64,000 nt of DNA, taken from assembly GCA_965287045.1 (NCBI GenBank), contig OZ336892.1, positions 6,696,001-6,760,000 of the forward strand. The letters are read 5' to 3'. This document shows positions 3,531-36,085 of this stretch, piece after piece. Position 1 is the first letter of the stretch. Each line of letters begins with the position of its first letter. The stretch comes from Carcharhinus amblyrhynchos. Its lineage: Eukaryota. The notes under the pieces are model-generated. The model searched no databases. It was not told the origin of the DNA and was given only the letters and a program-made list of their open reading frames with translations. The translations under genes were made by a program, and so were the position numbers.

Positions 3531-4984
3531 GACTAAAGTCAAATTTTATATTCCACCTCCCAGTGCCTTCTATAGGCAACTCAAAACTAATGCCCAAGTG
3601 AGGCCTCATTAGCTAGCAACTCCAATGAAGCCAATAATGCCACAAACATGGGAGAATAAACTGCGACTGTTAGCAAATTTCACCCAAATCTCAGTATGCC
3701 TAATCATTTGGGGCACATTCCTCAAAGAATATTAGCATCTTTTAAAAGTATGCAAAAATCTACCCTGAAACAAACTTTATTGGACAGTGCTTTGCCCAAG
3801 AGAATATTTTGTACACATCCAAACAGCCATAAGACCAGAGGAAGCACAAAATTACAAGCATCAACTCCTTGTGGGACTGGAATAAAGTTAGTTTTAAACT
3901 GATCTGCATAAAAAAAGTTTCAAATTCTTCACATACCCCTTTGTTAATAGCAGTTAGTAAGAGAATGCAGAACAGTAACTGCAGCACAAAGGCTTTTCCA
4001 CAAACTACAGCCAGCAAACTGCAGTTTTGGTCAAGAAAAACATGCTGATGTTTATTTTTAGCATTTGTGTGCATGAAAAAGAGGCAAAAGTACTGAAGCA
4101 AAAAAATGGACCCCTGAGATGGTTCTGCCAAACAGGCTCTTTGAAAGCACACACTCAGCCAAGCAGAAATGCTTCATGGCCTCAAACGTGATTTCCCCTT
4201 GCAAATGGAGTTGCACATGCTCAAGTGTAAACAAACAGTTCCATTACCCATTTTTCACACACACTAGCTGGGAGGGGGCTACTGAATGGCCGTACCCACA
4301 ACACTGCTGCACACTTGTCCCAAGAGTCCCTGTGGAAATATTTTCACTGAGCGCCACTTGGCTGTGACAAGTTAAACCCCTTAATGTTGCATTATAAATT
4401 CCAGCTGATTCATCTCAACTTGGGGGCATTAGATGTTAACATGGAAAGGCACCTGAGATAAAAGAGGGCTCTTCATCCTTGTAACAGTTGGCAAAAGCCA
4501 ACATTGAGCAATGAGGCACCACAGGGACTAACTTCATGAGAAACAGTGTGGGGAACAGGTCCCATCATGAAACCCCTCAAGCTGCCTCATGTCTGTCAGA
4601 AATTATTAACAGAACGAGTTCATAAGCTGGTTCACAATCCTCTGGAAGAGGCAAGGTGGTTGCATCTTATCACCACAAGATTTGAAATACTCACATTGGA
4701 AACTTTCACTATTTAAAGTTTAGGTCCAGTTTTAAGTTCTAAAAAAGGCAGGGATTGTGAACCAGTCACCATATGACCACCTGCCCATTTCTGCCAATGA
4801 CTCAAAAGAGTCACTGAAGGTCCTCACTAAACAGTTTCAACTGCTCTAACTCTGCTCGCAAGGATTTGCAGTGGATCTAGTGGAATTAAAAAAGCAGCAG
4901 TGTAAGATGGGAAGGAAACAATTCATGCAGATATCCTGAGTTTCAGTCTCCAGAACTAAAGATGGAAAATGAGTCAACTTTCAC

Positions 4985-5005
4985 CTTTTTCTTTATTTCA
5001 TCAAC
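4985..5005 (-). CDS. CLTC: CLTC alternative microexon 31, 21 nt (VDEIKKK)
   Basis: cccttgcag|GTTGATGAAATAAAGAAAAAG|gtgaaagt; phase 0-0; resembles the mammalian 7-aa exon 31 (VDAIKEK) in the expected intron. Confidence 0.88.
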
Positions 5006-7230
5006 CTGCAAGGGAATTCAGAGGGTAGCAGCTTAGAATCCAAACTCATCCAGCACAATAAAGCAGGTAGAAAACAGCAACAGAAAGGAGCAAAGTCAAG
5101 GAAAACCCAGAACAGGGAGATGGGAAGGGGAAGGAAGAAAGAACAGTAAATAGCAGCATTGTGTACTACAAAACATCAGGAAGGACAAATATACAGATGA
5201 ATAATGGCAGAATAAAATTGATCAAACTCACTTGACAACCACCTTGCTGGGATTAATTTTGACTAAGCAACAACCTATTCCAAAGTCAGGCTCCACTAAA
5301 TCCATGCAGCTTCTAAGGCTTCAGTACCCTATACCCAACTCTAACTATTCCCAAACCTCCACATTTGATGTTGCCATTTCCCCAAACTAGACAGCAAGTC
5401 ACACGAGACGCAATTAACCATTAAACTTCAAGGATAAAATCTTTGCTTCAAGATGAAGCAGAAAGCAAGCCCTGCTCATCCCCACTATACTCCATAGAAG
5501 GAGTCAACCCAAGACAAATTATTGCCATTACTTAGCTGAAGTAAACTAGCCAACCTATGGCTGCATGGAATTTAAATTTACACTGGCTGCATCAAGTTGG
5601 ATTCCATACCAAGTTTTATTATGCCATTCATCTGCAAGCAAAGGTAACTTGCAACAGGTACAGAAAAACAATTAAATATCAAAATAAGACACTGCAAGCA
5701 TATTAAGAGGATCACAACTCTTGCACAGGAAAGTTTGGCCAGGAATGCAAGGTCATTAGATAGGGCATTAATGTAAACAAAGTGCTGCAGGTGGGGGGGT
5801 AGGGGGAACTGGATAAGTGTTAGCCACCTCAAGTTTCTTGCCGTCACAATTTCAGCAGCTTCAGCATCTGATGTGATTCAATTCAAGAATTGCTATTCAA
5901 ATCAAGTTTTGTACAGCAAGGACTAGAGAGAATGCCCACAATCACATGCCCTTGTCTGGGGATATGCACCAACATTCGTGCTGTGTAACAGTTGACAATT
6001 CCAAAACCTCAAATTAGAGGCAACCCACTTATGGAATCCCATTCCATACAGCATTCAAGTAGTTAAATTGTCACTTAAAGAACCATCAAAACTATAGCAT
6101 AATTCTTGTCACATCCAAAAAAAGCACAAGTTATGGCAAGACACCCAATACAAGACTGAGAGCCAAGTCTTAGTTAAGCTAATCAAACTTAGTTTAACAT
6201 TACCAAGTAAAACGAATGCCCTTCTACAGCAGGGAGTGTAACATCAGCGCACTGTTCAAAGTAGGACAGGAAAAACATAAAGGATAACAACTCCAACAAG
6301 GGGACCTAGCAGAATTCCTTGAACAAGTTTTTGGTTTAGTTCTGCAAGCAAAAAAATCTGCTGAGTCTCCAGTTATTGCTCAGTTTAATGCCAAAGGTAT
6401 GTCATTGGAGTTATGCCAAGACAAACTCATTTATAACAGCTTTATAGTACTGTAGTATTACTTCATTAGGACAGGTCTGCCATTAAGCCAGCATTGATTT
6501 TTAATTTTTAAAAATGTCCATCTGCAATCTTAGTTTAGGATCAGTTTTAAAAAGAGTCTGCACTGCAACACATTCCAAAGGATGTTTAAACTGGAGACCA
6601 GATTTAAGACTGATTTTTCAAACCAAAAAGGAGCTGCAATGCAACAATCTCAATTAGTACAATTTATGGCAGAGTTCAAGTGTTTAAGTGAAATGGAACA
6701 GGTTGTGCCAGTCTACAAGGGGTGGTTGGGCAAACTCAGCCACATTTGCAAATGCAGCAAAGTCAAAATCTGAACTATTAAATGGTTTGATTAAGAGCTC
6801 TAATATTTATCCTAGAATGGATGGTCAGAAGAACAGATATTTAGAATGATAATTAGGAAAAAATTTTTAGAATGAGAAAACATGAGTACCAGAATTGGTT
6901 AATCTAGGTTAAATCAGTATTTTACTCTAGATGACAGGAGCCAGACAACACAAATTTTACTAGGCCTGATAGCCTAGTATCAGCCATGATTCAAGTCTTA
7001 GGTTGACTCGACTAGCAAAACAGCACAATTTTAGATCTGCTAAAAATTTGCTATGTACTGTAGGCTTCAAAACAATTCTAATCTCCATTGTAAACCTCAC
7101 CAGAAATCATTTGACAATTTTGCAGTATAGTCATTATATCTCAAAACATGAGAACACTTCAAACACAAACTGTTAAGTGCCTTGGAGCTACACCAACCTC
7201 CTTCAAGCTCACTTGTGTACTGTCACATAC

Positions 7231-7452
7231 CTTTGTGAGATACTCCCTCATCACCTGGATGAAGTATGGCATAGAGAAATCCATTATGTTGTGCCTCCAA
7301 GAAAGCTCAAGCACAACATCTGGCCTCAGCAGGTCATAACAAGTAAATAGACAGGAAGCAAAGCACTCATTCTTCCCATCCTCAAGGAACCACTGCAGCA
7401 ATTCCTCTGCTAGCTCAGTATCCTTGGACTCCGATGCATATTGCATAGCATC
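7231..7452 (-). CDS. CLTC: CLTC exon 30, 222 nt (DAMQYASE...EYLTK), trimerisation region
   Basis: AG acceptor, GTATGT donor. Confidence 0.96.
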
Positions 7453-8100
7453 CTGGAAAATTGAACATAAGAGTACATTAACTTACTTGTGCAAGTACCA
7501 CTGCAGTAACCAGACTGGCTTTAAAATTTACAACTGTCTGACCAAGAGCTACTCTCTAGGAGTACCCAAAGTTCAGTGAAGAATGCATGCTAGAGTATTC
7601 CATATTACAAAGATGGGCACTAAGTGCAGAGTCAATCTACATGCATAGTTCACTCTTGAAAGCAATGTTGATGTTCCTCTGGTAATCCTTGAGCCCTCCA
7701 TTTCAAGGTCAGTCTCATGGCAAGGTGGCCAGAACCAAGCATTGCACAAAGTACAAGTACTCTGGATTTATGTTCATATTCTCTGGGCCCCTCAAGTCAC
7801 CCTATGCCATTCCAGTGTCTAGATTAAAAATGTGATAATACTTCTAAAATACAAATGCAATAATTTGCTGTAACTACAGTTTAGAGTGTCAAATAATGAC
7901 AAGCTTGCATGCAGATTCCAGAGCATTAACATTTTAGGTTTGATGGGACTTCAAGGTGACTGAAGGTATAAACTATTTAATCTTCAGTCATGTGGGACAA
8001 GTGAATAGGAGTCTGTTACACTGCTTTGAAAGTCTGACTGTTAGGCACTCCAACTCTGAGCTCAACCCGTGAGAAAAGCAATCTTGTGATACTTCCATCA

Positions 8101-8313
<213 letters not shown>

Positions 8314-8699
8314 CTAAGTATAAAGGACATTTGTTTAACTTACAGTACAGGTAGACAAACACCTATGTACAAACCACAAGAACCAGAATTGATCAGATGA
8401 ACTATTGGTGTGGTAACTTGGGCCAAAAAGATAGTCAAAAATGCATTATGATATTCATTCTTAATATAGTATGGCATGGACTCTTAACTGGTTACCTCCA
8501 CTACAAACTCCCTTGTGGTAAGACTGGACCTGGAAAACCCTTACTGTCAGTCACAATACTCACTATATTACATAAAGATGCTCACTATAATGCTAACAAT
8601 AGGGTACAGTGGGCACTACTAGTCTATCAAAGTGCAACTTCAGGATATAACAATGATAACAGCTGCTCATTGAGCACCTTCCATTCAAGTTTCACCTAC

Positions 8700-8810
8700 C
8701 TGGTAGTCCTCCTCCTGGATGAACAGGTTATTCAATGACTCATTCACAGACTTGTTGTTGTTGCTTTGTACAGAACGCAGATAGGGTTTGACCAGATTCA
8801 GCTGCTTCAC
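8700..8810 (-). CDS. CLTC: CLTC exon 28, 111 nt (VKQLNLVKP...EEDYQ)
   Basis: Read manually; AG acceptor, GTAGGT donor. Confidence 0.95.
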
Positions 8811-8997
8811 CTGAAAAAACAAGAAATGGTTTGCAACTACCCTATTGCTTAAAAGTCAAAACAGGAACAGATGCTCCAAAATAAATTTGATATCAGGTTA
8901 GAGTTGTCTGTTCATGAGAAATCATAAGCACCACTGCAATGCCAAATAGAATTTGTCATCTTTTATTCCTCATCCTGCAGTATAAATATCTTCCACT

Positions 8998-9092
8998 GTC
9001 TTTGACAGTGTCCTCTGGACTCAAAATATTGGCTCTTTATATAGATGCTGCCAGACCTGCTGAGATTTTCCAGCATTTTCTTGTGGTTTGTG
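8998..9092 (+). repeat. Short Penelope-like terminal repeat (other copies ~14295-14365 minus, ~55680-55755 plus)
   Basis: Shared agatgctgccagacctgctgag..tttccagcatttt motif in three places. Confidence 0.6.
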
Positions 9093-9439
9093 CACCACAG
9101 GTTCAAGATCAGCAACTTAGGTCCATCTTCAAAACACTACTTCTTGAAAGTTAACTGAGCACATCTCAGTTTTGTTATTCTAGATGTTACTGTTGCCAGT
9201 CCCAATTTCACCCATACATTTCCACTACTGGGATATCTATACTCACCTCACTGGCAGGATAAGAGTTTACACATCAAGCCATTTAAGACTAGCAAGTCCC
9301 ACCTATCATTCTTTGAACAGTTAAGGATAAACACTTGCCCATGAGAGATGGGCAGAGGGAATTGACAGTGGAGGAAACAGGACCAGGCTAAGGTAAGACA
9401 GCCCCCATAAGGCCAAAGCTTGCTTGCACTAACAGCTGT

Positions 9440-9690
9440 AGAACAGGACCCTGGATCCCTACAGTGCAGGTGGCAGCCATTCAGCCCATCAAGCCTGCAC
9501 TGAACAATCCCACCCAAGTGCTATCCATGTAACCCCACATTTACCCTGCTAATCCTCTTGGGGAATAATTGCATATCAACCTAACCCCCATGAACTGTGA
9601 AGGGGAAACATGCAGTTAGGGACAATATGCAAACTCTCCAGTATTTAACTGGGTTTGCTGGCACTGAGGCAGTTAGTGCTAGCCACTTGA
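9440..9690 (-). mobile_element. V-type SINE
   Basis: ccctacagtgcag..gccattcagcccatc ... gaggcag..agtgctagccact. Confidence 0.7.
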
Positions 9691-9787
9691 CAGGGATGCA
9701 GGGTTCCCCTTTCCTTTAGTTTCTCAGCATTTCCTTTCAGGTTTCTAGTATGGTAGTATTTTGCAATTTATTTGCAAACTGAAGTAC

Positions 9788-9919
9788 CTTAGTAAAGTAG
9801 TTGACAGCACGTGTATGATCCAGACGAGGAGATAGCACCATGAGCAGATCATTCAGTAATAAAGGCTTAAACTCCAAGTAGAACTGTGTTGCTTTGTAAT
9901 AGAGCTCCACATTGGCCAC
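9788..9919 (-). CDS. CLTC: CLTC exon 27, 132 nt (VANVELYY...NYFTK)
   Basis: AAG acceptor, GT donor. Confidence 0.95.
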
Positions 9920-10371
9920 CTTAGAAAAATGCAAGTTAAATATTAGTTTAAGCAAGGTTACTTGACAGGAACCAAAACTTTGGCTCTAGCAAATTAAGGC
10001 TAAAACACAAGCAAAATTTACAACAAGGTTGGAATAAAATACAATATGCTTTGAATCAGTTTCTAGCTTCCTCTAGCCACTAGGTGGCATTTTATACAAG
10101 AGATATGGTTGCTAGTGTCACTCAGTGGGTAGAGCTAGTATTAAAACTCCACATTACAGCCTTATAGTCTTGGCCAGATTTAGCCTGTTTCTAAAACAGT
10201 CTGACTGAATGCCTGTGCATTTGTGAACTTACCACCAGGCCATAAATGCAGCTCCTTACAAGAAAAAGGCTAATTTTTGCTGGTTTGAAAGTCACTGTTT
10301 TGGGTATGTGACAAATAGCATGTTGACAGATTAAGAAAACATCTGTTATACAAACCACATGACAAAAACTG

Positions 10372-10620
10372 AATCATATCACCGAATCCCTACAGAAGGC
10401 CATTCAGCCTGCACTGACCACAATTCCATCCAGGTCCCATTTCCATAACCTCTCATATTACCCCTGACTAGTGTTAGTTTTAGCATGGCTAATCAACTCA
10501 ACGTGTACATCTTTGGACTGAGGGAGGAAACCCATACAGACATGGAGAATGTGCAAACTCTAGTGACCTGAAGCCAGAATTGAACCCAAGTCCCTGGTGC
10601 TGCAAGGAAGCAATGCTAAT
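10372..10620 (-). mobile_element. V-type SINE
   Basis: catctttggactgagggaggaaac, gaatgtgcaaactc, gaattgaaccc. Confidence 0.75.
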
Positions 10621-10672
10621 CCTTATTGGAGGTAAATGGTCCACAGATTTGCCCTAGGTGAGGATAAATTCA

Positions 10673-10870
<198 letters not shown>

Positions 10871-10873
10871 TTA

Positions 10874-11107
<234 letters not shown>

Positions 11108-11301
11108 TTACATTGAGCAGTGCAAGCAGAACCAACTTACAGGAGTAATGTCAAATACCTATGGTTTCTTTACAAGAGTTGAAAATTGCTTAGATTGCTA
11201 TTGAGGGGTACAATAAGCTGTTTTCAGCACAATTTTTAGAGTTGATACACAAATCAGGAAACTTTTGCAACTGCCTTAAGATACGTAATCTGATGAGGCT
11301 A

Positions 11302-11502
<201 letters not shown>

Positions 11503-11706
11503 TTACTTGGAAGCTAATGTCCAGTTATAGGAGATATCAAAACAATTCTTGTTATTCTGACTTTTGTTTTTAGAGGGAGCCATTTTGCCTCAACTTTAGG
11601 GAAAATTCACCATGTGTCCAAAGAACATGCAAGCAATCCTAACAGATGATTAACTGGTTCACTGAGGGGGAGGCAGAGACAACTTCCACTCAGTGCTTAC
11701 TAATTA

Positions 11707-12030
<324 letters not shown>

Positions 12031-12343
12031 CTACAATACACAGGAAAATACTTAGAGTTTCTATCTTTTCATCTGGCTCTGAAGATTCTCAAACTGAAGA
12101 GACTGACATCCTGTCACTGACCAATTAAAACCTGGAGGTCAGAGGCCATCAGGATGCATCAATAGCAGAGACAGTCAAGGCAACAAGTAGTGACCCACAT
12201 CGAAAAGGTCACATTCAATCCCTAACCCAGTCAGTAGATCTCTACCAAACCCAACAGCATTACAATTGGCTACAGCCATTGAGTTAAGGGAAGGTGTTTG
12301 ATCACTGCATTATGTTCATTCAGACCCTCAAGCTGCAATTTCA

Positions 12344-12953
<610 letters not shown>

Positions 12954-12989
12954 CTATTTAAAAAGGTAGTGTGAAATATCCATATTTCA

Positions 12990-13214
<225 letters not shown>

Positions 13215-13489
13215 TTAGATTTATTACACTAGAGGATACCACAATAGTTCACCTGGATATGGGTTTACAGCAATTAGCATACTTCACTATATCCTAATGC
13301 AGTATAGATGGACTTCCTTTCCCAGTCTGAAATAGGAAAATCAGAACCTCAACTATTTTCAGCAAAGACTTACAGCAAGCACTGCAGGATAATCTGGGTG
13401 TTGGGCAAAAATCAGCTACTTACCAAGTATGTAGGTCTGTTCTAGTGATTACCAATTAGAAAAATAGTTTGATATATAATCTTCTACAA

Positions 13490-13770
13490 TTCATGGGTTA
13501 TTAAACCTGCATGAAACTGGTTCAGTGTTAATTCTGGGCACCACACTTTTGGGAAGGTGGCTATGAAAGCATTGGAGGGTGCAGGAATGTCTCAAGACTG
13601 AGTAGTAAAAGTAACTGGAGAAGTTTGGACTGGTCTTGAGGCCAAGAGGAGATTTGGTGATGTATTCAAAATCCAAGGGGTTTGCACATAACAGGTAGGA
13701 AGAAATTGTTCCCATTGGAAGGTTGAGAACCAGGAGGGCATAGATTTAAGGCACTGGCAAGAACAGCAAT
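13490..13770 (+). mobile_element. CR1 3' fragment
   Basis: aattctgggcaccacactttt, cattggagggtgcag, agaaccaggagggcatagatttaagg. Confidence 0.7.
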
Positions 13771-14350
13771 AGTGTCAAGCTTTCCCCCCTGCCAAAACAA
13801 GTCCAACATGGACTCTGGTATCCTTCCATACTGTACCCAATTCATGTACTTAGAATGATAAACCTGATTCTAGAGTGCAAAAGCTATGAAATGTTTTGTC
13901 TACCAAATCCATTACTGCATTGCCTAAACTGGAGTGTTTTCTTTGGATTTGTAGGTTTGTGCTCCTACAGGTTTGATGCTGCTTCTGCCCATCCAGGACA
14001 ATTGCAAAAAACCAAAAAAGGTGGCAGCAGGCAAACACCAGAAGTTCTAAATCCAGCCTTTGGTGACCCAGCAGCCAGTAAATTGGTTGACACCAGGCAT
14101 AGTAGGCCAGAGATGGGAACCATGTTGAGGGGAGGACAAAACCAAAAATAGTTCTCATCTAGTGCAAAGGGGAGCCATTGTTGTAAAAGCTAGATTCAAA
14201 TGGCATCTAATGCCAAAACTAGCAAACCAAGTTACAACTCTAAACCATCACCACTGGCTGAAGTGTGCTCATCTTTAAAAGCAAAATATTAAATGCCAGA
14301 ATGAAACAAAACTGTTGGAACTCTGGTATGACAGCATCTGTGGACAGTTA

Positions 14351-14581
<231 letters not shown>

Positions 14582-15309
14582 TCAATTGTAAACTTCAGCA
14601 CAAGATACAAGTTGATTTCCTACAGATTATTCTTGAAAGTATGCACATTTTATGCAGGTAATCAGGATTTCTGTAGGGAAGAAAAAAGTGGCATGTGCTG
14701 CAACTCCAACCAACCTTCCAGACAGCCAGAGAATAGATAATGAATCAGTTGAATTGATTCAAAGGTCAATGTTGTATGATTGTCAATGGCATAGCTAAGC
14801 TTAGAAAGATTGTCTTACACTTCTCAAAAGCAGTGTTCTAAGCACAAGGAAGCTGGACTGCCATAAGTGACAGAAGTGCAAAGCATCAAGGACTGCATAC
14901 TACCCTTCTGCAGACACTAAAGAACTTGAACTATAGAAACCAACTCCATTTAAATCATTTCATGGCTTTGTCTAACTATTGCTTTGGGTTTTCCTCATTG
15001 CTGGGCTTGGAGGTTTCTTAAGACTTATTCAATGTATGGTATTTTAATCTAGGGTCATTTACTATAAGTTATGCTTTACCCTCAAGACTACAAGTGCATC
15101 AATACAAATCTTGAAGCCAATAATTTCCAAGTGGATCTATGTTTGTGTGACCAATTATGGTCATGACATGAACAATTAACAACTAAATAAAATTAGTGTT
15201 GAAACCTGCAGGCTTTCACAAGCTTCCAAATGCTACCAAGGAGGTTGGTTTATGTTTAAAAAAATCAGTAACCTTCTTACAGATAATGCAATTCTGTATT
15301 AGGATTTCA

Positions 15310-15528
<219 letters not shown>

Positions 15529-15669
15529 TTAAAAAGGTAAAAAAGAATCTCAAGGACAGTTCCAGGGCAAGCATTTCCACCCCACCAAATTACTTGAAGT
15601 GAAGCAAATATGGAATTTCAAAAATCAAGATGTATTTTTCATATTGAAGCCAGCTACAATGAACTTTAG

Positions 15670-15960
15670 GTCATCTTTACAGTGTGGTAAAATTTTAGTT
15701 GAAGGGTCTGTTGTTACAAGGAGACAAATTAAAAGTGAGGGGGGGATAATTGGAGGAAAACCTCTACCCAGAAGAGAGTGATGGTCTGGAATGCACTGCC
15801 TGGGAGGGTGGAAGAGGCAGGATGCCTCAAAAGTACCTGGATGAGTACTTACACACCATAACATTCAAGGTGATGGGCCAAGTGGGCAGGTCAGAGCATT
15901 TCATGTGTTGCTGCAGACTCAGTGGGCTGAAGGGCTCTTCTGCACTCTAGTATTGTGAAA
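15670..15960 (+). mobile_element. CR1 3' end
   Basis: tctggaatgcactgcctgggagggtgg; gggctgaagggctcttctgcact. Confidence 0.65.
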
Positions 15961-16238
15961 TTCCCACTGAATAATAGTGGTTAGCTCAAATAGTTGCACA
16001 CATCCTCAAGGCCAGAGTACAAATTTATAGACATTCCTTGTACAGGGACGTAGCTATATTGGTTACTTTCAAGAGGACCATTTAACTATCCCATTTGCAC
16101 CACAAGAATCATCCCTATGAAATGTTCCAAAAACAATGTTTTTTTTTAAAAAAGGTAAACTGCTGTTGAGTTCTTGCTATGCTCAAAATGGCTGCAACAT
16201 TGGCTGATACCTGTTCTTCACAAGCCCTAAACTGGCTA

Positions 16239-16637
<399 letters not shown>

Positions 16638-17129
16638 TCATACAAAAGCCTCACAAATAGGAATCAGTAGTGTAGTGTAAAGGCTTAGGACAAACCCTCA
16701 AAAACAAAGTGGTGGTAGAGGCAGGAACAGTCATGTGAATTCTCTACACTAGGGAGCAGTGAAGACTGGGTCACTGAATATACTTCAAGGTAAAAAGTTC
16801 TATTTACAAGGGTTTATAGGAAGACAGGAAAATAGAATTCAAGACACTCAGATCACCCATGTTGAATGGCAGTACAGAGACAACAATTGGTCTCCTGCTC
16901 ATTTAATCCTCAGATGTCTAAACTAAAAATTTAGACTAGAATCAGATGGACTGCCAGGGATGGTGTTTGACTGAAGTTGGACCAGTCTGGCACATTTGCT
17001 AAATTTCAAAGGGATTGAGGGGCAGAGTGAGAAATCAGAAATCAAACTAGGTTTGTCCCAATTACCCAAGTCCTTCAGTGGCCCAGTTTGGAAAGTCTGT
17101 CACTGGTACTTACCATTTCACAACTGTTA

Positions 17130-17354
<225 letters not shown>

Positions 17355-17434
17355 CTATCAAAGTAAAAGATCATTGTTAGTTGTAAATGGATGCATATTA
17401 GGACTGAATAATTTGAGAATGATCATTTAGAAAC

Positions 17435-17692
17435 AGTAGTGCCAGGGATCTGGGTTTGGGTCTGGCCTTGGGTGACTACTTTACATGTTCTCCATGTCTG
17501 TGGGTTTCTTCCAGGTGCTCTGGTGGTTTCCTCCTACAGTCCAAAAGATGTTTGGTGGCGGTGGAGAAATTGGGCATGGTAAACTGCCTCTTAGTCTCAA
17601 AAAGGAGATTAAGAGTTAATGGATTAGGATTGTGGTTGGTATAAGCTTGATGTATCAAAATGGCCTCCTTCTGCACTATAGGGATTCTATGA
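17435..17692 (+). mobile_element. V-type SINE
   Basis: tgtctgtgggtttcttccaggtgctc..ggtttcctcctacagtccaaa ... ctgcactatagggattctatga. Confidence 0.75.
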
Positions 17693-17964
17693 TGCTCAAA
17701 GCCTGTTACATGAATTAATGCAAAATCATTTATCCTTCCCCATTCTGGCTTGCAACTCCAGACCCCATAACAAGGCTCAACTATCCTCTGCAATGGCCTA
17801 AGCTACACAAGGGCAGCTAAGAATGGGCAGATGCTGGCCTTGCCAGCAATGCCTACATAAAAACCAAGTTCAGCTTGTGGACATGGAAAATTACTGCCAC
17901 ACCACCCCCCCAGAAATGTAACAAACCACCCGCCCAAGACAGAACCAAAACATTTCCAGTTCTA

Positions 17965-18105
<141 letters not shown>

Positions 18106-21100
18106 CTATGAAAACAATGGTTTAAAAAAAAGTGCGTCAGTCTTGTGCATGCAGTGTATTTGAACGGATGTATAAACAGACTTCCTACAACTGCTCTGAA
18201 TCTCCCTTTGACAGAACCAAGTGCAATATACATTCTCATAATGACAAATGCTACCACTTGGTGTTTGGTCAAATGCACAGCCTTGATTGAATTTTAAATA
18301 TTTTGATCTGACTTGCCAATTAAGTCAAAACTACAGCAAAAGTAGCCATGTCTTTAGATGCATCCACAAGTGGTTTATTCAGGTATGGAATCTAGAAGAT
18401 ACTGATGTAGATCAGTACTTGATCTTTCACATAACCTACCAGCCTTTAAAACTACAAACTCTTTAAAATCTACATTTCATGATTGCGATGATAGTTCATA
18501 TGTTGAAAGATCCAAAAAAGAACTAGTCACTAATCTCTTGCTGTGTGCACGTACAGAAATGACTCAAATTGCTGAGTGCAAACACTTTGGGCTGCACCAA
18601 GGCTCAAACCGAATGGATTGAGCTTTAGTTTATACACCAAAACTGGGTTGAATTTTAGTTTACATTCCTTTCAAGCATGAGCACACAGTTTGAGCAAAGA
18701 ATGGGAAAAACAAGCTATGTGCCTGGGAGCAAGAACTACAAAACACTTCTAGTCTACTCAGCTGCCAAAATAGGTTGAATATCAAACAATGCTTAAATCT
18801 TCAATATCAATGCAACATGGCATATGTATTGCTTTGATTCATTAAGGGCCATCTCAACACAAATTGGATTCTATTGAAACTTGGGATTAACCACCCTGGA
18901 ATGTGGGACTTGAATACTAATCTTCATTCCCAAGATGTTGAGATCTAGTGAAAACTTCATACCAGTTATTGGTTGAACACAACAACAAAGGTTAAAAACC
19001 CTACATCTACGACAGTAGTGATGGTTTTGAAGCTAGCAGTTACTGCAGGAATAGCACTCTGGGATTGGGAAGCAGACAGTGCTCTGATTTATACCAGCTT
19101 TAATCCACAGTTTCAGCTCATTAAGCAAAAATTTACTCTCTTGAACAGATGGACTCCAATAAATTCCACAATTTCTTCTTCAAAGCCTAGCAGCATTATT
19201 GCTGACACTTGCAACAGTGGGATAATGCTGGGGTCAGAATAGACCAAAGTGAGCTTTCACAACTTCAGCAGTTTTGCCCTACTCCCATTGTGAAACTAAG
19301 AGACCAACATCTGTACCTAAAACAAGGCCATACTGAAAGCAACAGTGTTCAAATTCCACTGCATCACATCCTGCTTTTAGGTAAAAAATGAACAAGTAAC
19401 TTACTCCTGTAGTTCAACACCACCACACAATGGCCCAACCAAGTCATAAGGACATGTGCACTGGTATCCAGTGAGCTGCATAATCTGCAATGGTTTGAGG
19501 CCTACCACCCATGGGGCTACTACTGAAAAGAACAGCTGTCTGCATTCCCCACAATTAATGAGTTGCAGACTACCTTCCAAATTCATAGTTTAGCTTTTGC
19601 TAATGCCAAATGGAGATATCCATGTTAATTCAAGACTAGAGCAATTAAGTGGCCAACTCCCAACTTACTGCCACTTGTGATTGAAAGCTATGCAGATGTA
19701 GCTACATCTGCCACACTAGTCTTGTCTTAGCCTTTTGGCACAAGTACCCACCAAGAAAACTACCAAATCTTTAGTTCATGATTTGGCATGAAGCCAGATC
19801 AGTTCTAAAATCATTGTACTTGCACTCAGCTAGGAGCAAGGTAAAAGCAATTCTAACTACATCTCTCCACCTTGATATGCAATGACACTAATTTACATCA
19901 AAAACAGCAAGAATTTCCTTAATGTGAACCAAGCCACCATCCATCTGTTAGTATGGGAGTTCACAAGTCCAGAGCAAGATGAAAATCCTCTTCAACAGGC
20001 CCTAGCAAATAGTTACATTTCTATTTCGATCTTCACTTAAAGCAGACCAAACAACTTTAGAATGCACTTTACAATAGTGGCTTTCCTTGAAGTTGGGCTG
20101 ATGTCAGCCACATTTCCACAAGTTTTAGATTATATTCTGAGAAGTTACTACAAAATCAAAACAGCAAGATCATTTTAAGCTGGCTTTACAAATGATATTC
20201 TGCCAATGTCTTGCCATATCCAAGAGCACTGTCCTGCACAAATAGGATAGGATATAGTCTTATGGAAATAAGGGGGAGGGGGGAGGAAAGGCCTGCGCTG
20301 CAAACATTTACCTGGTACATGTCCTGCTCATTCCAGATAAGGAACAGCACAAAAAATAATAGCTTCCATCAACAGCTGGTCACTCAGTTCAACATTATAC
20401 AAACCAATAAGCAGTTGAACAAGTTTAACATGGTCATTTAATGCACAGCTGACAGATTAATTCAGCAAAACAGATTTAACCCATTTTATATTTTTGTAGA
20501 AGCTTTATGGATCTTCAGTTGAGAAAGCAGCTAGGATTTGGTTTTGTTTAAAGCCTATTTGCTGTTACTTATTACTTGGCACCCTGCAACTGCTTTCTTA
20601 AAGTCAGTCCAATAACTGACATTAGACCATTATATTGCTAACATTATACTTCCAGTTTAGAGCAGCTAATTGAGACCAGCTTTGCTTTTCAATCATTTAT
20701 CGCATCCCAGTTAAAAAGCTGCTTGCAGTCAAGCCTTTGTTTTTCACATGACAAATTGCATATTGCAATTACAAGACAGTGAATTGTGTGGGGATTAACA
20801 GGTTTAGAAGCAGATATCCAGCTTAGTTATGGCCTTCACAAATTTGAGAATGTTCAAAGTTTGGACAGGCACCAAGTGCTCATTTAAGATGGAATGTGAT
20901 GGAGTTTAGAACAAGATATTACCATGTCCAATTACAGTATTGATGCCCTGTATTGCCCACACAACTGCCAGGAATAATCAGAAAGCAATAATTACACATT
21001 TACATATATAGCTAATGATAGTAAAAATGCAGTTTTCATGGCAAGAGCACAAGACAGCTTCCTTAAAAAAGTCACAGGAAAACTGATTGTCAGCTATTAA

Positions 21101-21161
21101 TTAGTTTTGTATTTCTACCCAGACAGCTTAAAACTCTGCATTACTTAAATATTTTAAATTA

Positions 21162-21389
<228 letters not shown>

Positions 21390-21814
21390 TTACAAACAAA
21401 GCAAAGTTGTTGTCACAGGGATAAAATGAGAATGTTTGGGTGAAGGTAGCCAGCAACATTCCTGGGTAAAGTCATGGAAAACCAATACCCCAATTATCTC
21501 ATAGCCCTGCCTCATGAATTGCTACTGAAACAGCCTGACTAATTTCAAACATCATGCCAATCTCCATCCATTTAGTCAGGCTTCCAAAAATCAAAGATGG
21601 CAACAAAAGGAACAAATCATGGCTCTTGGGACAACTAGCACTTGCTGCACCATTTAATGCAGTCCTCACTTTCAGCTCCCAATGAAAAATTGGGATGGGC
21701 ACTTGTGCCAAAAATGACAAATACATCTGTATACTGATGCTCACATGAATTTAAGGATTTTTGTTGAATAGTGTGGCAGCTATTCAATCAAGCATACTAC
21801 CATTTAGAAAATTG

Positions 21815-23050
21815 TTTGATTGAGCAGACGCAGCATGGATTTGTTAAGGGGAAGTCATGTTTGACAAATTTATTGGATTTCTATGATGTGACTCGTGCAG
21901 TAGACAGGAGGGGAACCGGTGGATGTGGTGTTTTTAGATTTCCAAAAAGGTGTTTGATAAAGGTGCCTCAAAGGTTGATACAGAAGGTTAGGGTGCACAG
22001 AGTTGTGGATAAGGTGTTAGCATGGATAGAGGATTGGTCGTCTAAAGAGGAAGCAGAGAGTTGGTATCAATGGGTGCTATTCTGGTTGGCAACTAGTGGA
22101 GTGCTGCAGGATTAGTGCTGGGGCCTCAACTATTTACCATTTATATAGATGATCTGGAGGAGGGGGCTGAGTGTAGGGTGACAAAATTTGCTGATGACAA
22201 GAGGAGTGGAAAAACAAATTGCATGAAAAGGTGTGGAAAGTCTTCAGAGATCTGGATAGGCTGAGCGAGTGGGTGAAGACCTGGCAGATGGAATATAAAT
22301 GTTGCAAGTGAGGTTATCCACTTTGGCAAATAGGAGGGATTATTATTTAAAAGGCAAAAAGCTGCAGCATGCTATGGTGCAGAGGGACCTGGGGGTCCTT
22401 GTGCACGAGTCACAAAAAACCCAGTCAGCAGGTGATTAAGGAGGCAAATGGAATGTTGGCCTTTATAGCAAGGGGGATAGAATATATAGAAGTAGGAGAT
22501 CTTGCTGCAACTGTACAGGGTACTGGTGAGGCTGCAGCTGGAGTACTGTGCAGTTTTGGTTGCTGTACTTGTGCAAGGATATATTGGCCTTGGAGGGAGT
22601 GCAGAGGAGGTTCACTAGGCTGATACTGGAGATGAGGGGGTGGGCCTGTCCTCTAAGATCCCCCTCATCCTTCTAAACTGAGACATACAAGATGAAGGGG
22701 ATAGACAGGGTTGAGGTAGAGAGAGATTCTTCCCACTTAGAAAGGATAGCAGGACTAGAGGACACAGCCTCAAAAGATAAGGGAGGGCAGTTTAGATCAG
22801 AGTTGAGGAGGAACTTCTTCACTCAAAGGGTGGTGAATCTCTGGAATTTCTCTGTCCATTGAAGTGGTGGAGGCTACCTAGCTAAATATATTTAAGTCAC
22901 AGGTAGATAGGTTTCTGATAGACAGGGGAATTGAGAGTTATGGGAAGAAAGTGGACTTGATCCACTTCAGATCAGCCACGATCTTATTGAATGGCGGGGT
23001 GGGCTCAAAGGGCTAGATGGCCTACTCCTGCTCCTATTTCTATGTTCTTA
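21815..23050 (+). mobile_element. 5'-truncated CR1 LINE (RT domain to 3' tail)
   Basis: QHGFVKGKSCLTNLL, SVLGPQLFTIYIDDL and KFADD motifs; ends atggcctactcctgctcctatttctatgttctta. Confidence 0.9.
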
Positions 23051-23663
23051 CTAGTTCAAACTTGTAACAGACCCAAAAGACAATTCAAAGAGTGAGGGGA
23101 ACTGGTAGATTTGAGCTGCTTTCTCTTGAAAGCATTGGTGAGAAGAGGTAGGGGAGGACAGACGGGTAGATCAGGAAGGCACAGTATGAGAGCTTGGAGA
23201 TTTCAAATAGAAAAAGGCAACCAAAGCACAGCAGTTTATAAAAGGGTAAGGATTTAGAATTTAAACCACCTAGGTCAGTAAGGACAGAATGACAATGATG
23301 AGTTGTGGAAATTTCTTACTGGGACATAGGATAGAAAGAACCTTTGAATAGTCTGCAGTACACCATTATGTACTTGGAAAACAAGCAAGGTGCTTTATAC
23401 AAAGATAGGTGAGCCTGTTTGTTGCCATACCAACATTTACAAAACTTTGATGAGTCTCTTGTCCAATTACTTCAAAAGGATTGGAAAAAACAAGTACACT
23501 TTATGCTGTTTCAACATGCACAAAATACTAAACTGCACAAATGATCCTGCACAAAAATTTGTGATAGACAGGATGCGGCATCACCCATTCTTAGCTGGTT
23601 ATGGATTATTTATAACAAAAACCCTTCCAGTTGAATTTCCAGGAAGTGGAGCCAAACCTCTTA

Positions 23664-23864
<201 letters not shown>

Positions 23865-23943
23865 TTACAATGGCAAAATGATTTTAGAATGTCAAAGCTA
23901 AAATAGTTTAAGTGACACAAGTTACATTACCAAATAGATTCTA

Positions 23944-24117
<174 letters not shown>

Positions 24118-24723
24118 CTAAAAACCAAAATCGATTTACATTAATGTACCAGCTTAAGAGAAATAAAAGCTATATTGACAAGTTGTTTTGCATCAGTATA
24201 AATGCTTACTTCAGGTGAAAATAAGCATTTCTACATTAAAACAGTACATATCAGCACAAATAGCCAGGGAAATCTAATGAATATATTGAATGCAAATGAT
24301 ATTGCCAATTACCAGCTAACTAATGGCATGTGTCTGACAAGGTTGTATAATACAAATGGCTGATATGTACACCATTCATGCAACCACTAGAGGGCTTGAA
24401 GTGACAACCACAAGTTGCATTGTAGTGGTACCAGCTGCAGAAAAACCATGAAGCAGCAGCCAGTTTGAGTCAAGAACAAGTTTAAAAATAAAAGCACCTT
24501 AAAATTCTCTACAAATTCAAAAGGGTGATACTGAGCAAATATCTTCAACTGAAAGGAGATCTATATAGTGATAGCATGAGAAATTTGTACAGATGAAAAA
24601 CAGGTTTAGCTTAAATGGCTTGTGCTGTATCTGTTTAGATGAATAGCCAGTATTGGTGTTTCGCTTTGAACACCCCTTTCAGTTAACCCCAACAGCATGT
24701 CACATTTTACACAACTTCCACTG

Positions 24724-24995
24724 GCAGTGGTTAGCACTGCTGCCTCAGTGCCAGAGGCCCAAGTTCAATTCCAGCCATGGGTGAGTGAGGAGTTTGCATG
24801 GGTTTCCTTCAGGTGCTCCAGTTTTTCCCAGTCCAAAGATATGGGGGTTAGGTTGATTGGCCATGCTAAATAGACCTTTACTGTCAGGGCATTAGCAGGG
24901 CAAGTATCTTAAGGGGATGGGCCTGGGTGGGATTGTGGTCAGTGCAGATTTGATGGGCCAAAAGGCCTCCTTCTGCACTGTGGGGATTGTATGAA
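24724..24995 (+). mobile_element. V-type SINE
   Basis: cagtggttagcactgctgcctca ... gattggccatgctaaat ... ccttctgcactgtggggatt. Confidence 0.8.
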
Positions 24996-25059
24996 GTACC
25001 ACATTGTGGCAAGAAAATTGACTGGCTCAGACCTCATGTTTCCCATGCTGTGTTGTTCT

Positions 25060-25660
25060 TTGTCCTTTAAATGGCAGGCCTATTAAGAGTATAGAAAAGT
25101 ACACAAGTCCTTGAAGGTGGCAGTACAGGTGGAGAAGGTGAAGGCAGCCGATGGTATGCTTGCCTTTTAGGGTGGGGTATAGAATATAAAGCTGGCATCT
25201 GATGTTGCTGTTGTACAGATTGTTTGCCTGCATTTGGAGTACTGTGTCCAGTTCTGGTTGCCTTACTACCAGGACGTGGAGACCCTGGAGTGCAGAGGAC
25301 GTTTACCAGGATGTTGCCTGGTATAGAAGGCCTGAGCTAAGAAGAAAGATTGAGCAAACTGGGGCTGTTCTCTTACAAAGGTGGAGGATGAGGGGAGACC
25401 TTAGGAGGTATAAGATTGAAGGGTCTAGATAAAGAGAACAGTGGTAAGCTTTTTCCTAGGTTGGATACAATAATTACAAGGGGCCCCACGGGCTTAGGGT
25501 GAGGTATAACTCCTTTGATAGAGGGAGGTTTTTCCTCCACACAGGGTGGCGGGGGCCTGGAATGCACTGCCAAGTAGGTGGTGGAGGCAGACACGCTGGG
25601 GTTGTTTAAGGCTTACTTTAGGCACAAGAGACTAGAGATGGAGGGATACAGGAGACTTTT
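25060..25660 (+). mobile_element. CR1 3' fragment
   Basis: ggagtactgtgtccagttctgg, gtgcagagga..tttaccaggatg and cctggaatgcactgcc motifs. Confidence 0.8.
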
Positions 25661-25954
25661 CTAAATAAAGATCAAGAGCTTTGGGACATCCCTGGGAATC
25701 AATTGATTCCTATGGACCTTCCAAAATATTTCATAGCTCACTTGCTTTGTGCTTCTGGGGATTCTGTAAATGTCTAAGTTTTGCATGTTTATTGATGTCT
25801 TTTTACTTATTAGGTGATTTGGTCCACTTTGTTGGCCAAGGGGCAAACACAGTGGGTCGTGCGATGGCTGCTCTTGGATGTGGCTTTGAAAGTTGCTTAG
25901 TGCTTCATGTCATTAGTGTACACTTAAACTGGACCATCTGACAAGCAACATGAC

Positions 25955-26245
25955 AGCTCAGGTGATTATCACTTTGCTGTGCAGATACCTGGCTTTGGGC
26001 TGGTGTCTGTGGGGGTTTGCACACATTCTCCCTGTGATTGTGTGGGTTTGCTCTGGCTTCCTCTCACATCCCAAAAATGTGCTCTTAGGCTGATTAGGGG
26101 CAATTTGTTACACCAAATTAGCCTTCCCTCAAATCTTCCCCAGTAGGTGTAGACAAAGGTCATGGGTAGAGGAGGGCACTCAAATGTTAAAATGGCAGTG
26201 AGTGTGTTGGGCTAAAGGGCCTGTTTCCCATGCTGTGTTGTTCTT
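25955..26245 (+). mobile_element. V-type SINE variant with CR1-like tail
   Basis: gtctgtgggggtttgcacacattctccctgtg..tgtgtgggttt; gggctaaagggcctgtttcc. Confidence 0.65.
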
Positions 26246-26403
26246 TAAAGTTATACAGCCCTTCAGACCAGATATCACATACAATTAAATCCATTCAGCT
26301 GGATCACTAGATAAAAAGGACAAGGATATTGCCAACAGGACAAGTGCAACTTTCAATTCTACCACTCCCACCCAGAGGGTTAAAAACAGTTCTCCACAAC
26401 CTA

Positions 26404-26826
<423 letters not shown>

Positions 26827-27467
26827 TCATAAGATGGGTAGACCCATCCTTCATCCACATTCAGTTCTATTAAACCAAAAGCTGTATTTTCCCCCCTTTC
26901 AGCATGTACCAAATTTCCCTTTTGAATGTTACCAATTAATTGGCTTCCAACACCCTTCAAAGCACTACATTTCAGATAACTCAAATACTGCAAAAGTAGT
27001 GCCTTAAAAAAAAGGGCAAGTGTACATTTTGTAAGGGTTCAAACAATCCAGAGCTAGTTCCACCACTTTTTCTGGTATGAGCACCAATTGTGCCCCCCCA
27101 CTTCCAATACTTGGCATCCAATTCAGAATAGGAGGAACTTTCAGGCTCAGAGTCCACTTCTATTGGATTAATTTGTGGCATGGTCCCCTTATGTTAATTG
27201 GAAATTTGATACTTAGTTTCCTTAGTGTATTAAAATAATTCAAGGTCCTCTTGTGAGCAAGTCACATTAGTGAGCACTGCAGAATGATCAAAGTTCAGTC
27301 CATTAATTCAGGTTAACATTAAAATATATATAGTGTTAAACATTCAAGTAATTTTAGACATTGAGATCAAAAGACATGGAAAGACATTCTTGCAATATAA
27401 CAAGGTTAACTGAAGTACAAGGGTTCTTTTCTGCATTGACTCACTTTCAAAGAGAAAATTCCCTTAC

Positions 27468-27590
27468 CTGGGTGATATCTGCAAGAGGTTCTTCATCCTG
27501 AACCAACATCTGAGCAAACTGAAGTCCTTGATCAGGACCAACTCTCATTACGTTCCTCAGCAGAAAGATCCAGTCTGGCGAGTAACCAAC
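27468..27590 (-). CDS. CLTC: CLTC exon 10, 123 nt (VGYSPDW...ADITQ)
   Basis: AG acceptor, GTAAGG donor. Confidence 0.95.
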
Positions 27591-27919
27591 CTGAACAAGG
27601 ATGGGCCACAGTTGAGCAATAAACAAATACACACCTACAACAGTCAACTATCTAGCTACGTCAATTCCAAACCTACAGCTTTAAATGGATTCTTGAGAAA
27701 AAGGCAGAACTTCTGCATCAAATCTTAAACACATTTTAGATGTGGCTTAACTTTGATAAGAGCCACTTTTTGCAGCTGATCCCAATACAAATCTAAAATT
27801 CTACATTTTGATAAAGGTTGCTGAGACTCAGACTCACTAAAGCTTTAGATTAAAGGCAAACAGACACACACAGCAATGTCATTTTCAGTTTGCAATCAAG
27901 GCATTGCAAGAATCAATGC

Positions 27920-28650
27920 TTGGGCATCAGTCAAGTGCAATACAATCTATAATTAATGACTTGGATGAGGGAAACAGTGTGATGTATCCAAGTTTAGTTT
28001 GTGGACAAAAATGAAGTGGGAAAGTGGCAAGCAGGACACGAGGCAGAAAAATTGTAATATTTGAGCATGAACATGGCAGACGGTATAGAAGAATTCAGAA
28101 ACTGAAATTATCCACTAATAGAAAAACTTTTTTTTTTAAAAGGGCACTAGTAAATGCAGACAGGCAGAGGAATGGGAGGACTCTTGCACATGAAATCAAA
28201 CATGAAAATGCAATAAGAAAATCAAATTGTCCATCACTGTCAGGGGCTGAGTACAAAAAGCACAAGTTTTAACCCCACAAAAGCACCATATAGTTTAGCT
28301 CAAGTAATGAGGAGCACAGATTCACTGGATTAATCCCCAAATTATGACTACCTTACTGTACTAACAAGGACATCATGGGAAACAAATCTGTAGTTTTAAA
28401 GTAGATTGCACTGGCCAAAACATTAACTAGCAGTCTCAGAACAAGAGATTCATTGGAAACTGAGCTGAAATTTAAGGGTTGTGAAATTTTCTACCCAGAA
28501 GGGATGCAGATGCTCAGGTCATCAACCCTCAAACTAAGTAGATTTACCATCAAGGGCTTTGGGACTAGGATGGGAAAAGAGATAGATAGGCCAGCCATTC
28601 TTTAATGGAAGCTGACTGGTAGGGCTTTGTGGCCCATTCCTGCCTGTGTC
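27920..28650 (+). mobile_element. Highly decayed CR1 fragment
   Basis: attaatgacttggatgaggg, tatccaagttt and a 3' ggcccattcctgc-like tail. Confidence 0.6.
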
Positions 28651-28875
28651 CCAGGAGCAGTGAAGGATTATGCACAGCTCTGAAAATTAGTTTTAGGTTG
28701 AAGGCAGTTAGGACTTGGAGTTGGAGTTGGAGTTGAAGGACCTTCCAACTAGTTCAACAGTACTCCCAGAAAGAACAGAACTGAATGAATAAAGGAGATT
28801 GGTCAAATCCTTAGAAGGAAAAGCAGATTTAATAAAGTCTAAAATTGTCTCCTGTCCAAGCTGAACAAATAGTTA

Positions 28876-29046
<171 letters not shown>

Positions 29047-30004: not shown

Positions 30005-30255
30005 GGAGAGGATGGCACTGTCACTGGCTTAAACTCTGCCACAGTAAATGGTGAATTAAAAGCTCATGATTGTTGACTGACATTAAAATCTATCTAGTTC
30101 ACCAACATCCTTTAGGATAGGAAATATGCCACCCTTACCTGATCTGGCCTACGTTTGACTCCCCAAATTGCCCTCTGAAATGACCAGCAGGCTGCTCAAT
30201 ACAAGGGTAGTTATGGGTGGGCAATAAATGCAGGCCCAGCCAGTGCCCAAATTGA
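30005..30255 (+). mobile_element. SINE with L2-like tail (further fragment at ~17730-17860)
   Basis: tctagttcaccaacatcctttagg.taggaaat.tgccacccttacctg.tctggcct ... gggcaataaatgc.ggcccagccag. Confidence 0.65.
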
Positions 30256-30382
30256 ATGCATGACACAGTAAAGCCTGTAGGACAAATTATTCTATGCTGA
30301 TCTTGGAAAGTGTAGCAAGCAAAGTAGTTGCATTAAATTTGAATAAGTGTACAAATAGTAGTCTGGGGGATGAATCCAATTA

Positions 30383-30625
<243 letters not shown>

Positions 30626-30973: not shown

Positions 30974-31261
<288 letters not shown>

Positions 31262-34402: not shown

Positions 34403-34768
<366 letters not shown>

Positions 34769-35920: not shown

Positions 35921-36085
<165 letters not shown>

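What the first reader, a model, noticed from the sequence alone, without database searches (positions are those of the whole stretch)
4985..5005. Hidden 21-nt CLTC microexon (VDEIKKK), a shark-type counterpart of the pit-to-plaque switch exon 31
Seen: ttgcag|GTT GAT GAA ATA AAG AAA AAG|gtgaaag, frame-preserving, 2.2 kb downstream of exon 30 and invisible to the ORF track. Established: mammalian CLTC has a 7-aa alternative exon (VDAIKEK) here, in the trimerisation domain, included in muscle and brain and linked to flat clathrin plaques. Inference: the switch predates the cartilaginous/bony fish split. The substitutions (A to E, E to K) rearrange charge and make the insert more basic while keeping a one-heptad length.
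Basis: partly seen in the sequence, partly recalled or inferred. Interest (0 to 1): 0.75.

Follow-up and report, generated by a model that had tools for sequence, protein, structure and literature searches.

The report
Shark clathrin microexon, older than jaws
A shark clathrin heavy-chain gene carries the 21-base optional exon that in mammals helps turn endocytic pits into flat adhesion plaques; database gene models already show it in other sharks, and look-alike inserts in lamprey and in the sister gene CLTCL1 suggest it likely arose before jawed vertebrates, though its use and effect in sharks are untested.

Summary
Minus-strand 5005-4985 reads ttgcag|VDEIKKK|gtgaaag, in phase 0, 2,225 nt after exon 30 of a shark CLTC gene. 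It ranks first of 302 candidate exons in 1-7230. Its intron flank reads VKVDS, as in mammalian read-through proteins.

It is not new to databases: RefSeq models of Heptranchias and Mustelus already contain VDEIKKK, and teleost models contain VDAIKEK.

Lamprey has VDEMKAK at the same site, and bird, reptile and teleost CLTCL1 carry 7-9-residue inserts there, against 0 of 42 mammalian CLTCL1 proteins. Parsimony makes E3 ancestral, so 'A to E' is probably reversed; only K6 is a shark change. Core residues V1 and I4 are kept, and a single-chain model keeps one continuous helix.

Against: 3 of 4 laid runs gave an mRNA contig, all skipping the exon; none showed inclusion; tissues unknown.

Extra: a weak-splice-site 48-nt exon (6251-6204) matching a Mustelus isoform. 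Verdict: a real orthologue of a known exon, with modest evolutionary interest.

The parts
4985..5005 (-). 21-nt frame-preserving microexon (VDEIKKK), orthologue of mammalian CLTC exon 31
   Evidence: same peptide in RefSeq Heptranchias and Mustelus isoform X1; no substitution listed here in runs X1 and X12
5006..5255 (-). Acceptor and upstream pyrimidine-rich tract (73% C/T over 5006-5155) with clustered YGCY and TCTT/TTCT motifs (recalled as MBNL- and PTBP1-type sites; binding not tested)
   Evidence: C/T fraction reached by 0.08% of 150-nt windows; 8 YGCY (2% of 250-nt windows reach this) and 9 TCTT/TTCT (2.7%)
4967..4984 (-). Donor and conserved intron start; reads VKVDSF, as do hamster and orangutan read-through proteins (chimpanzee VKVDSL). 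A second, weak GT 6 nt on matches the 9-residue teleost CLTCL1 forms
   Evidence: P0072, P0206, P0205
4924..4929 (-). Single TGCATG (recalled RBFOX motif) 56 nt into the downstream intron; not significant alone
   Evidence: 12% of 250-nt windows hold one
6204..6251 (-). Candidate second, 48-nt frame-preserving exon (CADVTLPAVEGHSFYL) between exon 30 and the microexon; weak splice sites
   Evidence: 15 of 16 residues match the extra insert of Mustelus XP_078080761.1; acceptor above 5 of 29 and donor above 0 of 30 constitutive sites; no contig over 6214-6251 in 4 runs
7231..7452 (-). CLTC exon 30 (222 nt, phase 0 at both ends), trimerisation domain, equal to residues 1536-1609 of clathrin heavy chain structures
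   Evidence: exon 29-30 junction in contigs of X1, X4, X7
7231..61491 (-). Shark CLTC exons 1-30, all with AG/GT ends; the last exons lie beyond the window's left end

Best explanation
This 21-nt segment is the shark orthologue of CLTC exon 31, a likely optional exon that would add one heptad (VDEIKKK) to the tripod helix of the clathrin trimerisation domain, predicted to stabilise the trimer and, as in mammals, likely to favour flat plaques over pits in striated muscle. Shown: position, phase, strong acceptor, conserved flanks, CLTC identity, both the with- and without-insert forms in shark gene models, and the skip form in RNA contigs. Predicted: helix continuity, with V1 and I4 in a/d-type register. 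Inferred from mammals: trimer stabilisation, the plaque switch and muscle-biased inclusion. Inferred from the distribution: one origin before the lamprey split and the CLTC/CLTCL1 duplication, with loss from mammalian (and perhaps amphibian) CLTCL1.
For: Ranks 1 of 302 on splice sites and 1 of 335 on peptide similarity. Identical peptide in 2 of 4 chondrichthyan CLTC models seen; the other 2 lack it. Intron read-through matches mammals over 5-6 codons. In run X12 (organism D) substitutions are 6 of 476 nt near the exon against 31 of 577 nt further off (Fisher p=3e-4). The tree puts the gene among shark CLTC, SH-aLRT 100. The single-chain model of the Heptranchias insert form has one helix over residues 73-115, spanning the insert at 91-97, block pLDDT 82. 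V1610 and I1613 are the modelled core residues of the human insert, and the human insert form resisted detergent better (bioRxiv 10.64898/2026.08.20.745084, section 7); shark keeps both residues. Lamprey isoforms P0120 and P0235 differ only by VDEMKAK. V1 is invariant, and D2 and K7 need one change each, over 23 inserts.
Against: No inclusion junction in 4 of 4 runs; the 3 with an mRNA contig skip the exon (tissues unknown, contigs drop minor forms). RefSeq XP models are predictions whose RNA support I did not see. Nothing tests plaques in sharks. K6 replaces the acidic residue that PMC7480091 (section 10) says interrupts a smaller hydrophobic stretch, so surface behaviour may differ. The V-D...K frame copies the exon 30/32 junction, so repeated independent gains in lamprey or CLTCL1 are not formally excluded; their intron flanks were not aligned. 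The conservation test uses one run, low-depth contigs and stretches chosen after seeing the data, and ignores gaps.
Confidence: 0.8

Rival explanations
1. The exon is real and spliced, but in sharks it has another tissue pattern or effect (for example neural or low-level inclusion, or tuning of adaptor or light-chain binding through the more basic surface), and the plaque switch is a later bony-vertebrate use.
For: All 3 informative runs skip it. Outer residues vary widely across lineages and paralogues, including 9-residue forms that break heptad register. PMC7480091 (discussion passage) does not exclude an adaptor effect.
Against: Core V1/I4 and the length are kept. Upstream YGCY and pyrimidine clustering fits the regulators known for muscle exons (motif labels recalled).
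Confidence: 0.15
2. The sequence is a conserved but silent remnant in this species, kept as an intronic element and never joined into mRNA.
For: 0 of 4 runs show inclusion.
Against: Open frame, acceptor stronger than 26 of 29 constitutive ones, and the identical peptide in isoform models of two shark orders.
Confidence: 0.04
3. A chance AG..GT match in a long intron.
For: Short sequence; 335 such 21-nt candidates exist in the window.
Against: Best on both independent scores, in the expected intron and phase, with a mammal-like flank and identical shark models.
Confidence: 0.01

Closest known systems
Mammalian CLTC exon 31 (21 nt, VDAIKEK, inserted after K1609; Moulay et al. PMC7480091; Blue et al. 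PMC13676984)
   Same: Gene, intron, phase 0, 21 nt, 5 of 7 residues including core V1 and I4, donor flank reading VKVDS, existence of a skip isoform.
   Different: E at position 3 (likely ancestral) and K at position 6 (likely shark-derived); net charge +1 against 0. Tissue regulation and plaque function are shown only in mammals. A possible extra 48-nt exon upstream.
RefSeq shark CLTC isoform X1 (Heptranchias perlo XP_067864580.1; Mustelus asterias XP_078080761.1)
   Same: Identical VDEIKKK insert; Mustelus also has the 16-residue insert (15 of 16 identical to the window's).
   Different: These are predicted models. The window protein differs at 2 (Mustelus) and 14 (Heptranchias) of 1,608 residues.
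Lamprey clathrin heavy chain insert VDEMKAK (Petromyzon marinus XP_032803267.1 and sister isoform)
   Same: Same site, 7 residues, V-D-E-hydrophobic-K-x-K, present in some isoforms and absent in another.
   Different: Single-copy gene outside both paralogue clades; M4 and A6; intron flanks not compared.
Non-mammalian CLTCL1/CHC22 inserts (VDGLFYK, VDGLFNK in birds and reptiles; VDEIAEK, VDEFAAK(VT), VDELAGQ(VK) in teleosts)
   Same: Same site, V-D start, optional among isoforms; the 9-residue forms end VK/VT/VM, like the CLTC donor flank.
   Different: Paralogous gene, faster divergence, 9-residue variants; absent from 42 of 42 readable mammalian and 5 of 5 amphibian CLTCL1 proteins, and reported absent from human CLTCL1 (PMC13676984, section 18).
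Rodent Cltc microexon 33 / CHC17-SAS (PMC13676984; bioRxiv 10.64898/2026.08.20.745084)
   Same: Another lineage-specific splicing change in the same C-terminal region, an analogy for the shark 48-nt exon.
   Different: It lies after exon 32, shifts the frame and truncates; the shark candidate lies before exon 31 and keeps the frame.

Membership tests
CLTC exon 31 microexon | Lies in CLTC (CHC17), not CLTCL1 | tested here: met
   shark CLTC clade and CLTC clade both SH-aLRT 100; no flanking genes in the window for synteny
CLTC exon 31 microexon | Follows exon 30 (after K1609), 21 nt, phase 0-0, AG/GT ends | tested here: met
CLTC exon 31 microexon | Encodes a heptad with hydrophobic residues 1 and 4 continuing the tripod helix | tested here: met
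   pattern; continuous helix in a single-chain model of the Heptranchias form; trimer not modelled
CLTC exon 31 microexon | Conserved flanking intron | tested here: met
   read-through identity with mammals over 15-18 nt, as protein; 6 of 476 against 31 of 577 substitutions in X12
CLTC exon 31 microexon | Alternatively spliced: both skip and inclusion mRNAs exist | tested here: inconclusive
   skip form in 3 of 4 runs, inclusion in 0 of 4; inclusion seen only in predicted models of two other sharks
CLTC exon 31 microexon | Inclusion rises in maturing striated muscle | not testable with these tools
   run tissues not given and only contigs served
CLTC exon 31 microexon | Stabilises the trimer and promotes flat plaques | not testable with these tools

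The most novel reading that the evidence does not exclude
The trimer-stiffening microexon is a founding vertebrate invention, older than jaws and than the CHC17/CHC22 duplication; it is still spliced into CHC22 of sharks, teleosts, reptiles and birds and was lost from mammalian CHC22; and some sharks added a second, proline-containing 16-residue exon just upstream that would kink the tripod helix, giving a three-state trimerisation domain.
Probability: 0.3. Interest if true: 0.6.

Novelty: new member of a known kind. Interest (0 to 1): 0.35.

Why it matters
The exon itself is known and its shark form is already in RefSeq, so the sighting alone is ordinary. The distribution adds something. The papers I read trace exon 31 only through amniotes (to chicken) and describe it as absent from human CLTCL1. 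The lamprey and non-mammalian CLTCL1 inserts suggest a single origin at the base of vertebrates and a loss in mammalian CHC22. Nature has varied positions 3, 5 and 6 while holding V1, D2, a hydrophobic 4 and K7. That gives a ready panel of natural variants to ask whether the pit-to-plaque effect comes from the extra hydrophobic core turn or from surface charge and adaptor binding, a point PMC7480091 leaves open.

Tried and rejected
No whole genome is held for this window, so exon 32, synteny and the CLTCL1 locus could not be read. Motif scan and tblastn found no exon 32 or later exon in 1-4984. Laying 4 of the 23 listed runs gave no inclusion junction; X12 gave no mRNA contig. The mRNA contigs of X1 and X4 stop 28 nt into exon 32; by my k-mer reasoning (assuming 31-mers) a rejoining microexon path would stop them at 26 nt, so I do not count this as inclusion evidence. 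Intronic contigs around the exon (depth 3-10) are not counted as evidence of retention. A search with the Mustelus junction found 19 hits among 39 candidates, none a cluster representative with the 16-residue insert; this is weak, as only representatives are searched. The first tree run timed out; the tree used is a quick LG+G4 search with SH-aLRT only, and it leaves lamprey, CLTC and CLTCL1 as an open three-way fork. Mean hydrophobic moments did not separate insert from skip forms consistently (mammal 0.34 vs 0.35; shark 0.43 vs 0.39; lamprey 0.34 vs 0.40) and are not used. The 27-nt alternative-donor form is possible here but its donor is below all 30 constitutive ones. The lone TGCATG is not significant. 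Rejected: the gene being CLTCL1; 'A to E' as a shark change. Two look-ups of earlier scan findings returned nothing.

Full report
Observation. On the minus strand, 5005-4985 reads GTT GAT GAA ATA AAG AAA AAG (VDEIKKK) between ...cccttgcag and gtgaaag. Exon 30 ends at 7231 in phase 0, 2,225 nt upstream, and matches residues 1536-1609 of solved clathrin heavy chains. A spliced model gives 30 exons from 61491 to 7231, all with AG/GT ends (the script's last donor was corrected to 7231). Exon 32 is not in the window. With a splice matrix trained on the gene's own sites, the 21-mer ranks 1 of 302 candidate frame-preserving exons in 1-7230, and 1 of 335 21-nt candidates window-wide for similarity to the mammalian insert. 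It is not a chance match.

Which gene. Over 1,608 residues the model is 99.9% identical to CLTC of Mustelus and Cetorhinus/Carcharodon, 99.3% to stingrays, 99.1% to Heptranchias, about 96% to tetrapod CLTC, 90.9% to lamprey and 89-91% to the tetrapod and sturgeon CLTCL1 models then in hand. In a 37-sequence tree cut at the end of exon 30 and rooted on molluscs, it sits in the shark/ray CLTC clade (SH-aLRT 100), sister to bony-vertebrate CLTC; lamprey, CLTC and CLTCL1 form an open three-way fork. So 'shark CLTC' is supported.

Is it an exon. For: RefSeq isoform X1 of Heptranchias perlo and of Mustelus asterias contain VDEIKKK at this site, while 2 other chondrichthyan models lack it. These are predicted models; that they rest on RNA reads is my recall of the pipeline, not something I saw. 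The intron just after the exon reads VKVDSF in frame, as do hamster and orangutan read-through proteins, with VKVDSL in chimpanzee. In run X12, a relative, substitutions are 6 of 476 nt around the exon and 31 of 577 nt further away (p=3e-4), and none is listed in the exon; this rests on one run of low-depth contigs, stretches chosen after the fact, gaps not counted. The upstream 150 nt is 73% pyrimidine, with YGCY and TCTT clusters. Against: I laid 4 of the 23 runs listed. Three gave an mRNA contig (depth 146-351); in all three exon 30 runs straight into a loose end that I read by hand as VDKLDISES, the start of shark exon 32. None showed inclusion. Tissues are unknown and contigs drop minor forms, so this shows the skip form, not absence of the other.

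How old. Of 430 proteins fetched, 302 had a readable junction; 214 had no insert and 88 had one, a few of them evident mis-predictions. VDAIKEK occurs in 31, across mammals, birds, turtles and teleosts. Lamprey isoforms P0234/P0235 carry VDEMKAK, and P0120 differs from P0235 only by lacking it. CLTCL1 carries VDGLFYK (7 proteins, birds), VDGLFNK (6, reptiles) and, in teleosts, 7- or 9-residue forms such as VDEIAEK, VDEFAAK(VT) and VDELAGQ(VK). The 9-residue forms end like the CLTC donor flank, which fits use of a second GT six bases on. No insert was found in 42 readable of 47 mammalian CLTCL1 proteins, 5 of 5 amphibian CLTCL1, or 12 readable of 15 mollusc proteins; these samples are small and absence from models is weak evidence. 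PMC6548504 (passages) dates the CLTC/CLTCL1 duplication after the jawless-fish split and before the jawed-vertebrate radiation. The simplest reading is one origin before both events (inference, about 85%). The caveat is that V-D...K copies the exon 30/32 junction, so repeated gains are conceivable; flanks in lamprey and CLTCL1 were not aligned. In addition, contigs in X1 and X4 from a second locus match only a short stretch ending at 5024 (in X4 4981-5024, 5 differences in 44 nt) with unrelated flanks, and share the same upstream loose end. This is probably the shark CLTCL1 microexon, but it was not identified.

Direction of change. Parsimony over 23 inserts on the topology (Varanus added by hand; tips without an insert left out) gives E3 at the vertebrate, gnathostome and CLTC ancestors, with A3 arising in bony-vertebrate CLTC, and E6 at the gnathostome ancestor, with K6 arising in sharks. 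Net charge is +1 against 0 in mammals and lamprey.

Mechanism. In mammals the seven residues extend the tripod helix; skipping lowers plaques and forced inclusion raises flat lattices (PMC7480091: section 10 and passages). V1610 and I1613 are modelled as a new hydrophobic core, and the insert-bearing hub resists detergent better (bioRxiv 10.64898/2026.08.20.745084: abstract, sections 5 and 7, first part of the discussion). The shark insert keeps V1 and I4 and the V..I...V..L spacing. A single-chain AlphaFold2 model of the Heptranchias form (17-sequence alignment, mean pLDDT 74.6) has one helix over residues 73-115, through the insert at 91-97; likeness to solved clathrin helps such a model, and the trimer was not modelled. 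I therefore expect trimer stabilisation (about 75%) and a muscle-biased plaque role (about 60%); both are inferred. On tissue, PMC13676984 (abstract, passages, sections 10 and 18) says heart and skeletal muscle, mildly brain, and PMC7480091 says cultured neurons skip it.

A second candidate exon. The Mustelus model has 16 more residues before VDEIKKK. The window encodes 15 of these 16 at 6251-6204, a 48-nt open segment between cag and gtaatg. Its splice sites are weak on this gene's matrix (acceptor above 5 of 29, donor above 0 of 30; the matrix favours AG before the donor) and it is not in the top 10 of 302 candidates. It has no second copy in the window, no contig covered 6214-6251, and no cluster representative carried it. 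It contains a proline and would break the heptad spacing. It may be a minor or noisy exon of some sharks; I give it about 40% for regular inclusion.

Prior art. Eight full-text searches were run. 'microexon + cltc + elephant shark' and 'microexon + clathrin heavy chain + lamprey' found 0 papers; 'VDAIKEK' found 2; 'CLTCL1 + microexon' found 2, of which I read parts of one and saw only the listing of the other (PMC8638120). PMC13676984 reports full conservation from mouse to chicken and absence from human CLTCL1; a term search in it found no 'shark', 'zebrafish' or 'lamprey'. I also saw passages of PMC13522860 and bioRxiv 10.1101/2021.09.08.459463. The library lacks most subscription papers, I saw no supplements, and VastDB (recalled as covering fish and shark) could not be checked, so the deep conservation may already be on record.

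Verdict. A real orthologue of a known exon, already present in shark gene models: a new member of a known kind, interest 0.35. The added value is the likely pre-gnathostome origin, the paralogous CLTCL1 exon apparently lost in mammals, the corrected direction of change, and a possible extra shark exon.

Noticed in passing
window 39202-39204, minus strand (intron 2): cag|ATG|gtgagt after a pyrimidine tract; joined between exons 2 and 3 it would add one Asp after K83. This matches the retina-specific 3-nt CLTC microexon in bioRxiv 10.1101/2021.09.08.459463 (passages). Asp at this site occurs in 31 fetched proteins of both paralogues, and Glu in 2 of 3 lamprey isoforms, so it also looks pan-vertebrate. 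Not tested in RNA.
   Followed up: partly
window 6204-6251, minus strand: 48-nt open segment matching an extra 16-residue insert in the Mustelus CLTC isoform X1 (15 of 16 residues); weak splice sites, no RNA cover in 4 runs.
   Followed up: partly
window 4981-5024 as matched by contigs of runs X4 and X1: A second locus in these animals matches only the acceptor and microexon (5 differences in 44 nt in X4) with different flanks; probably the CLTCL1 microexon, not identified.
   Followed up: no
P0129 (woodpecker CLTCL1 model): Read-through after VDGLFYK is ASS*, which would fit a GC donor for the bird CLTCL1 microexon; DNA not seen.
   Followed up: no
P0131, P0132, P0133 (bird CLTCL1 models): An extra insert of about 30 residues after the PIVF motif, where the rodent microexon 33 and the human CLTCL1 penultimate exon sit; several carnivore, bat, rabbit and primate CLTCL1 models also keep the long C-terminus.
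   Followed up: no
window 3324-3441, 24725-24824, 62679-62811: Three copies of a short interspersed repeat, 71-76% alike; resembles the V-SINE family from recall, not tested.
   Followed up: partly
window 63233-63658 and about 50000-52300, minus strand: Decayed reading frames that look like retrotransposon remnants; the first hits Pfam PF09004, the 50741-51277 frame hits nothing.
   Followed up: partly
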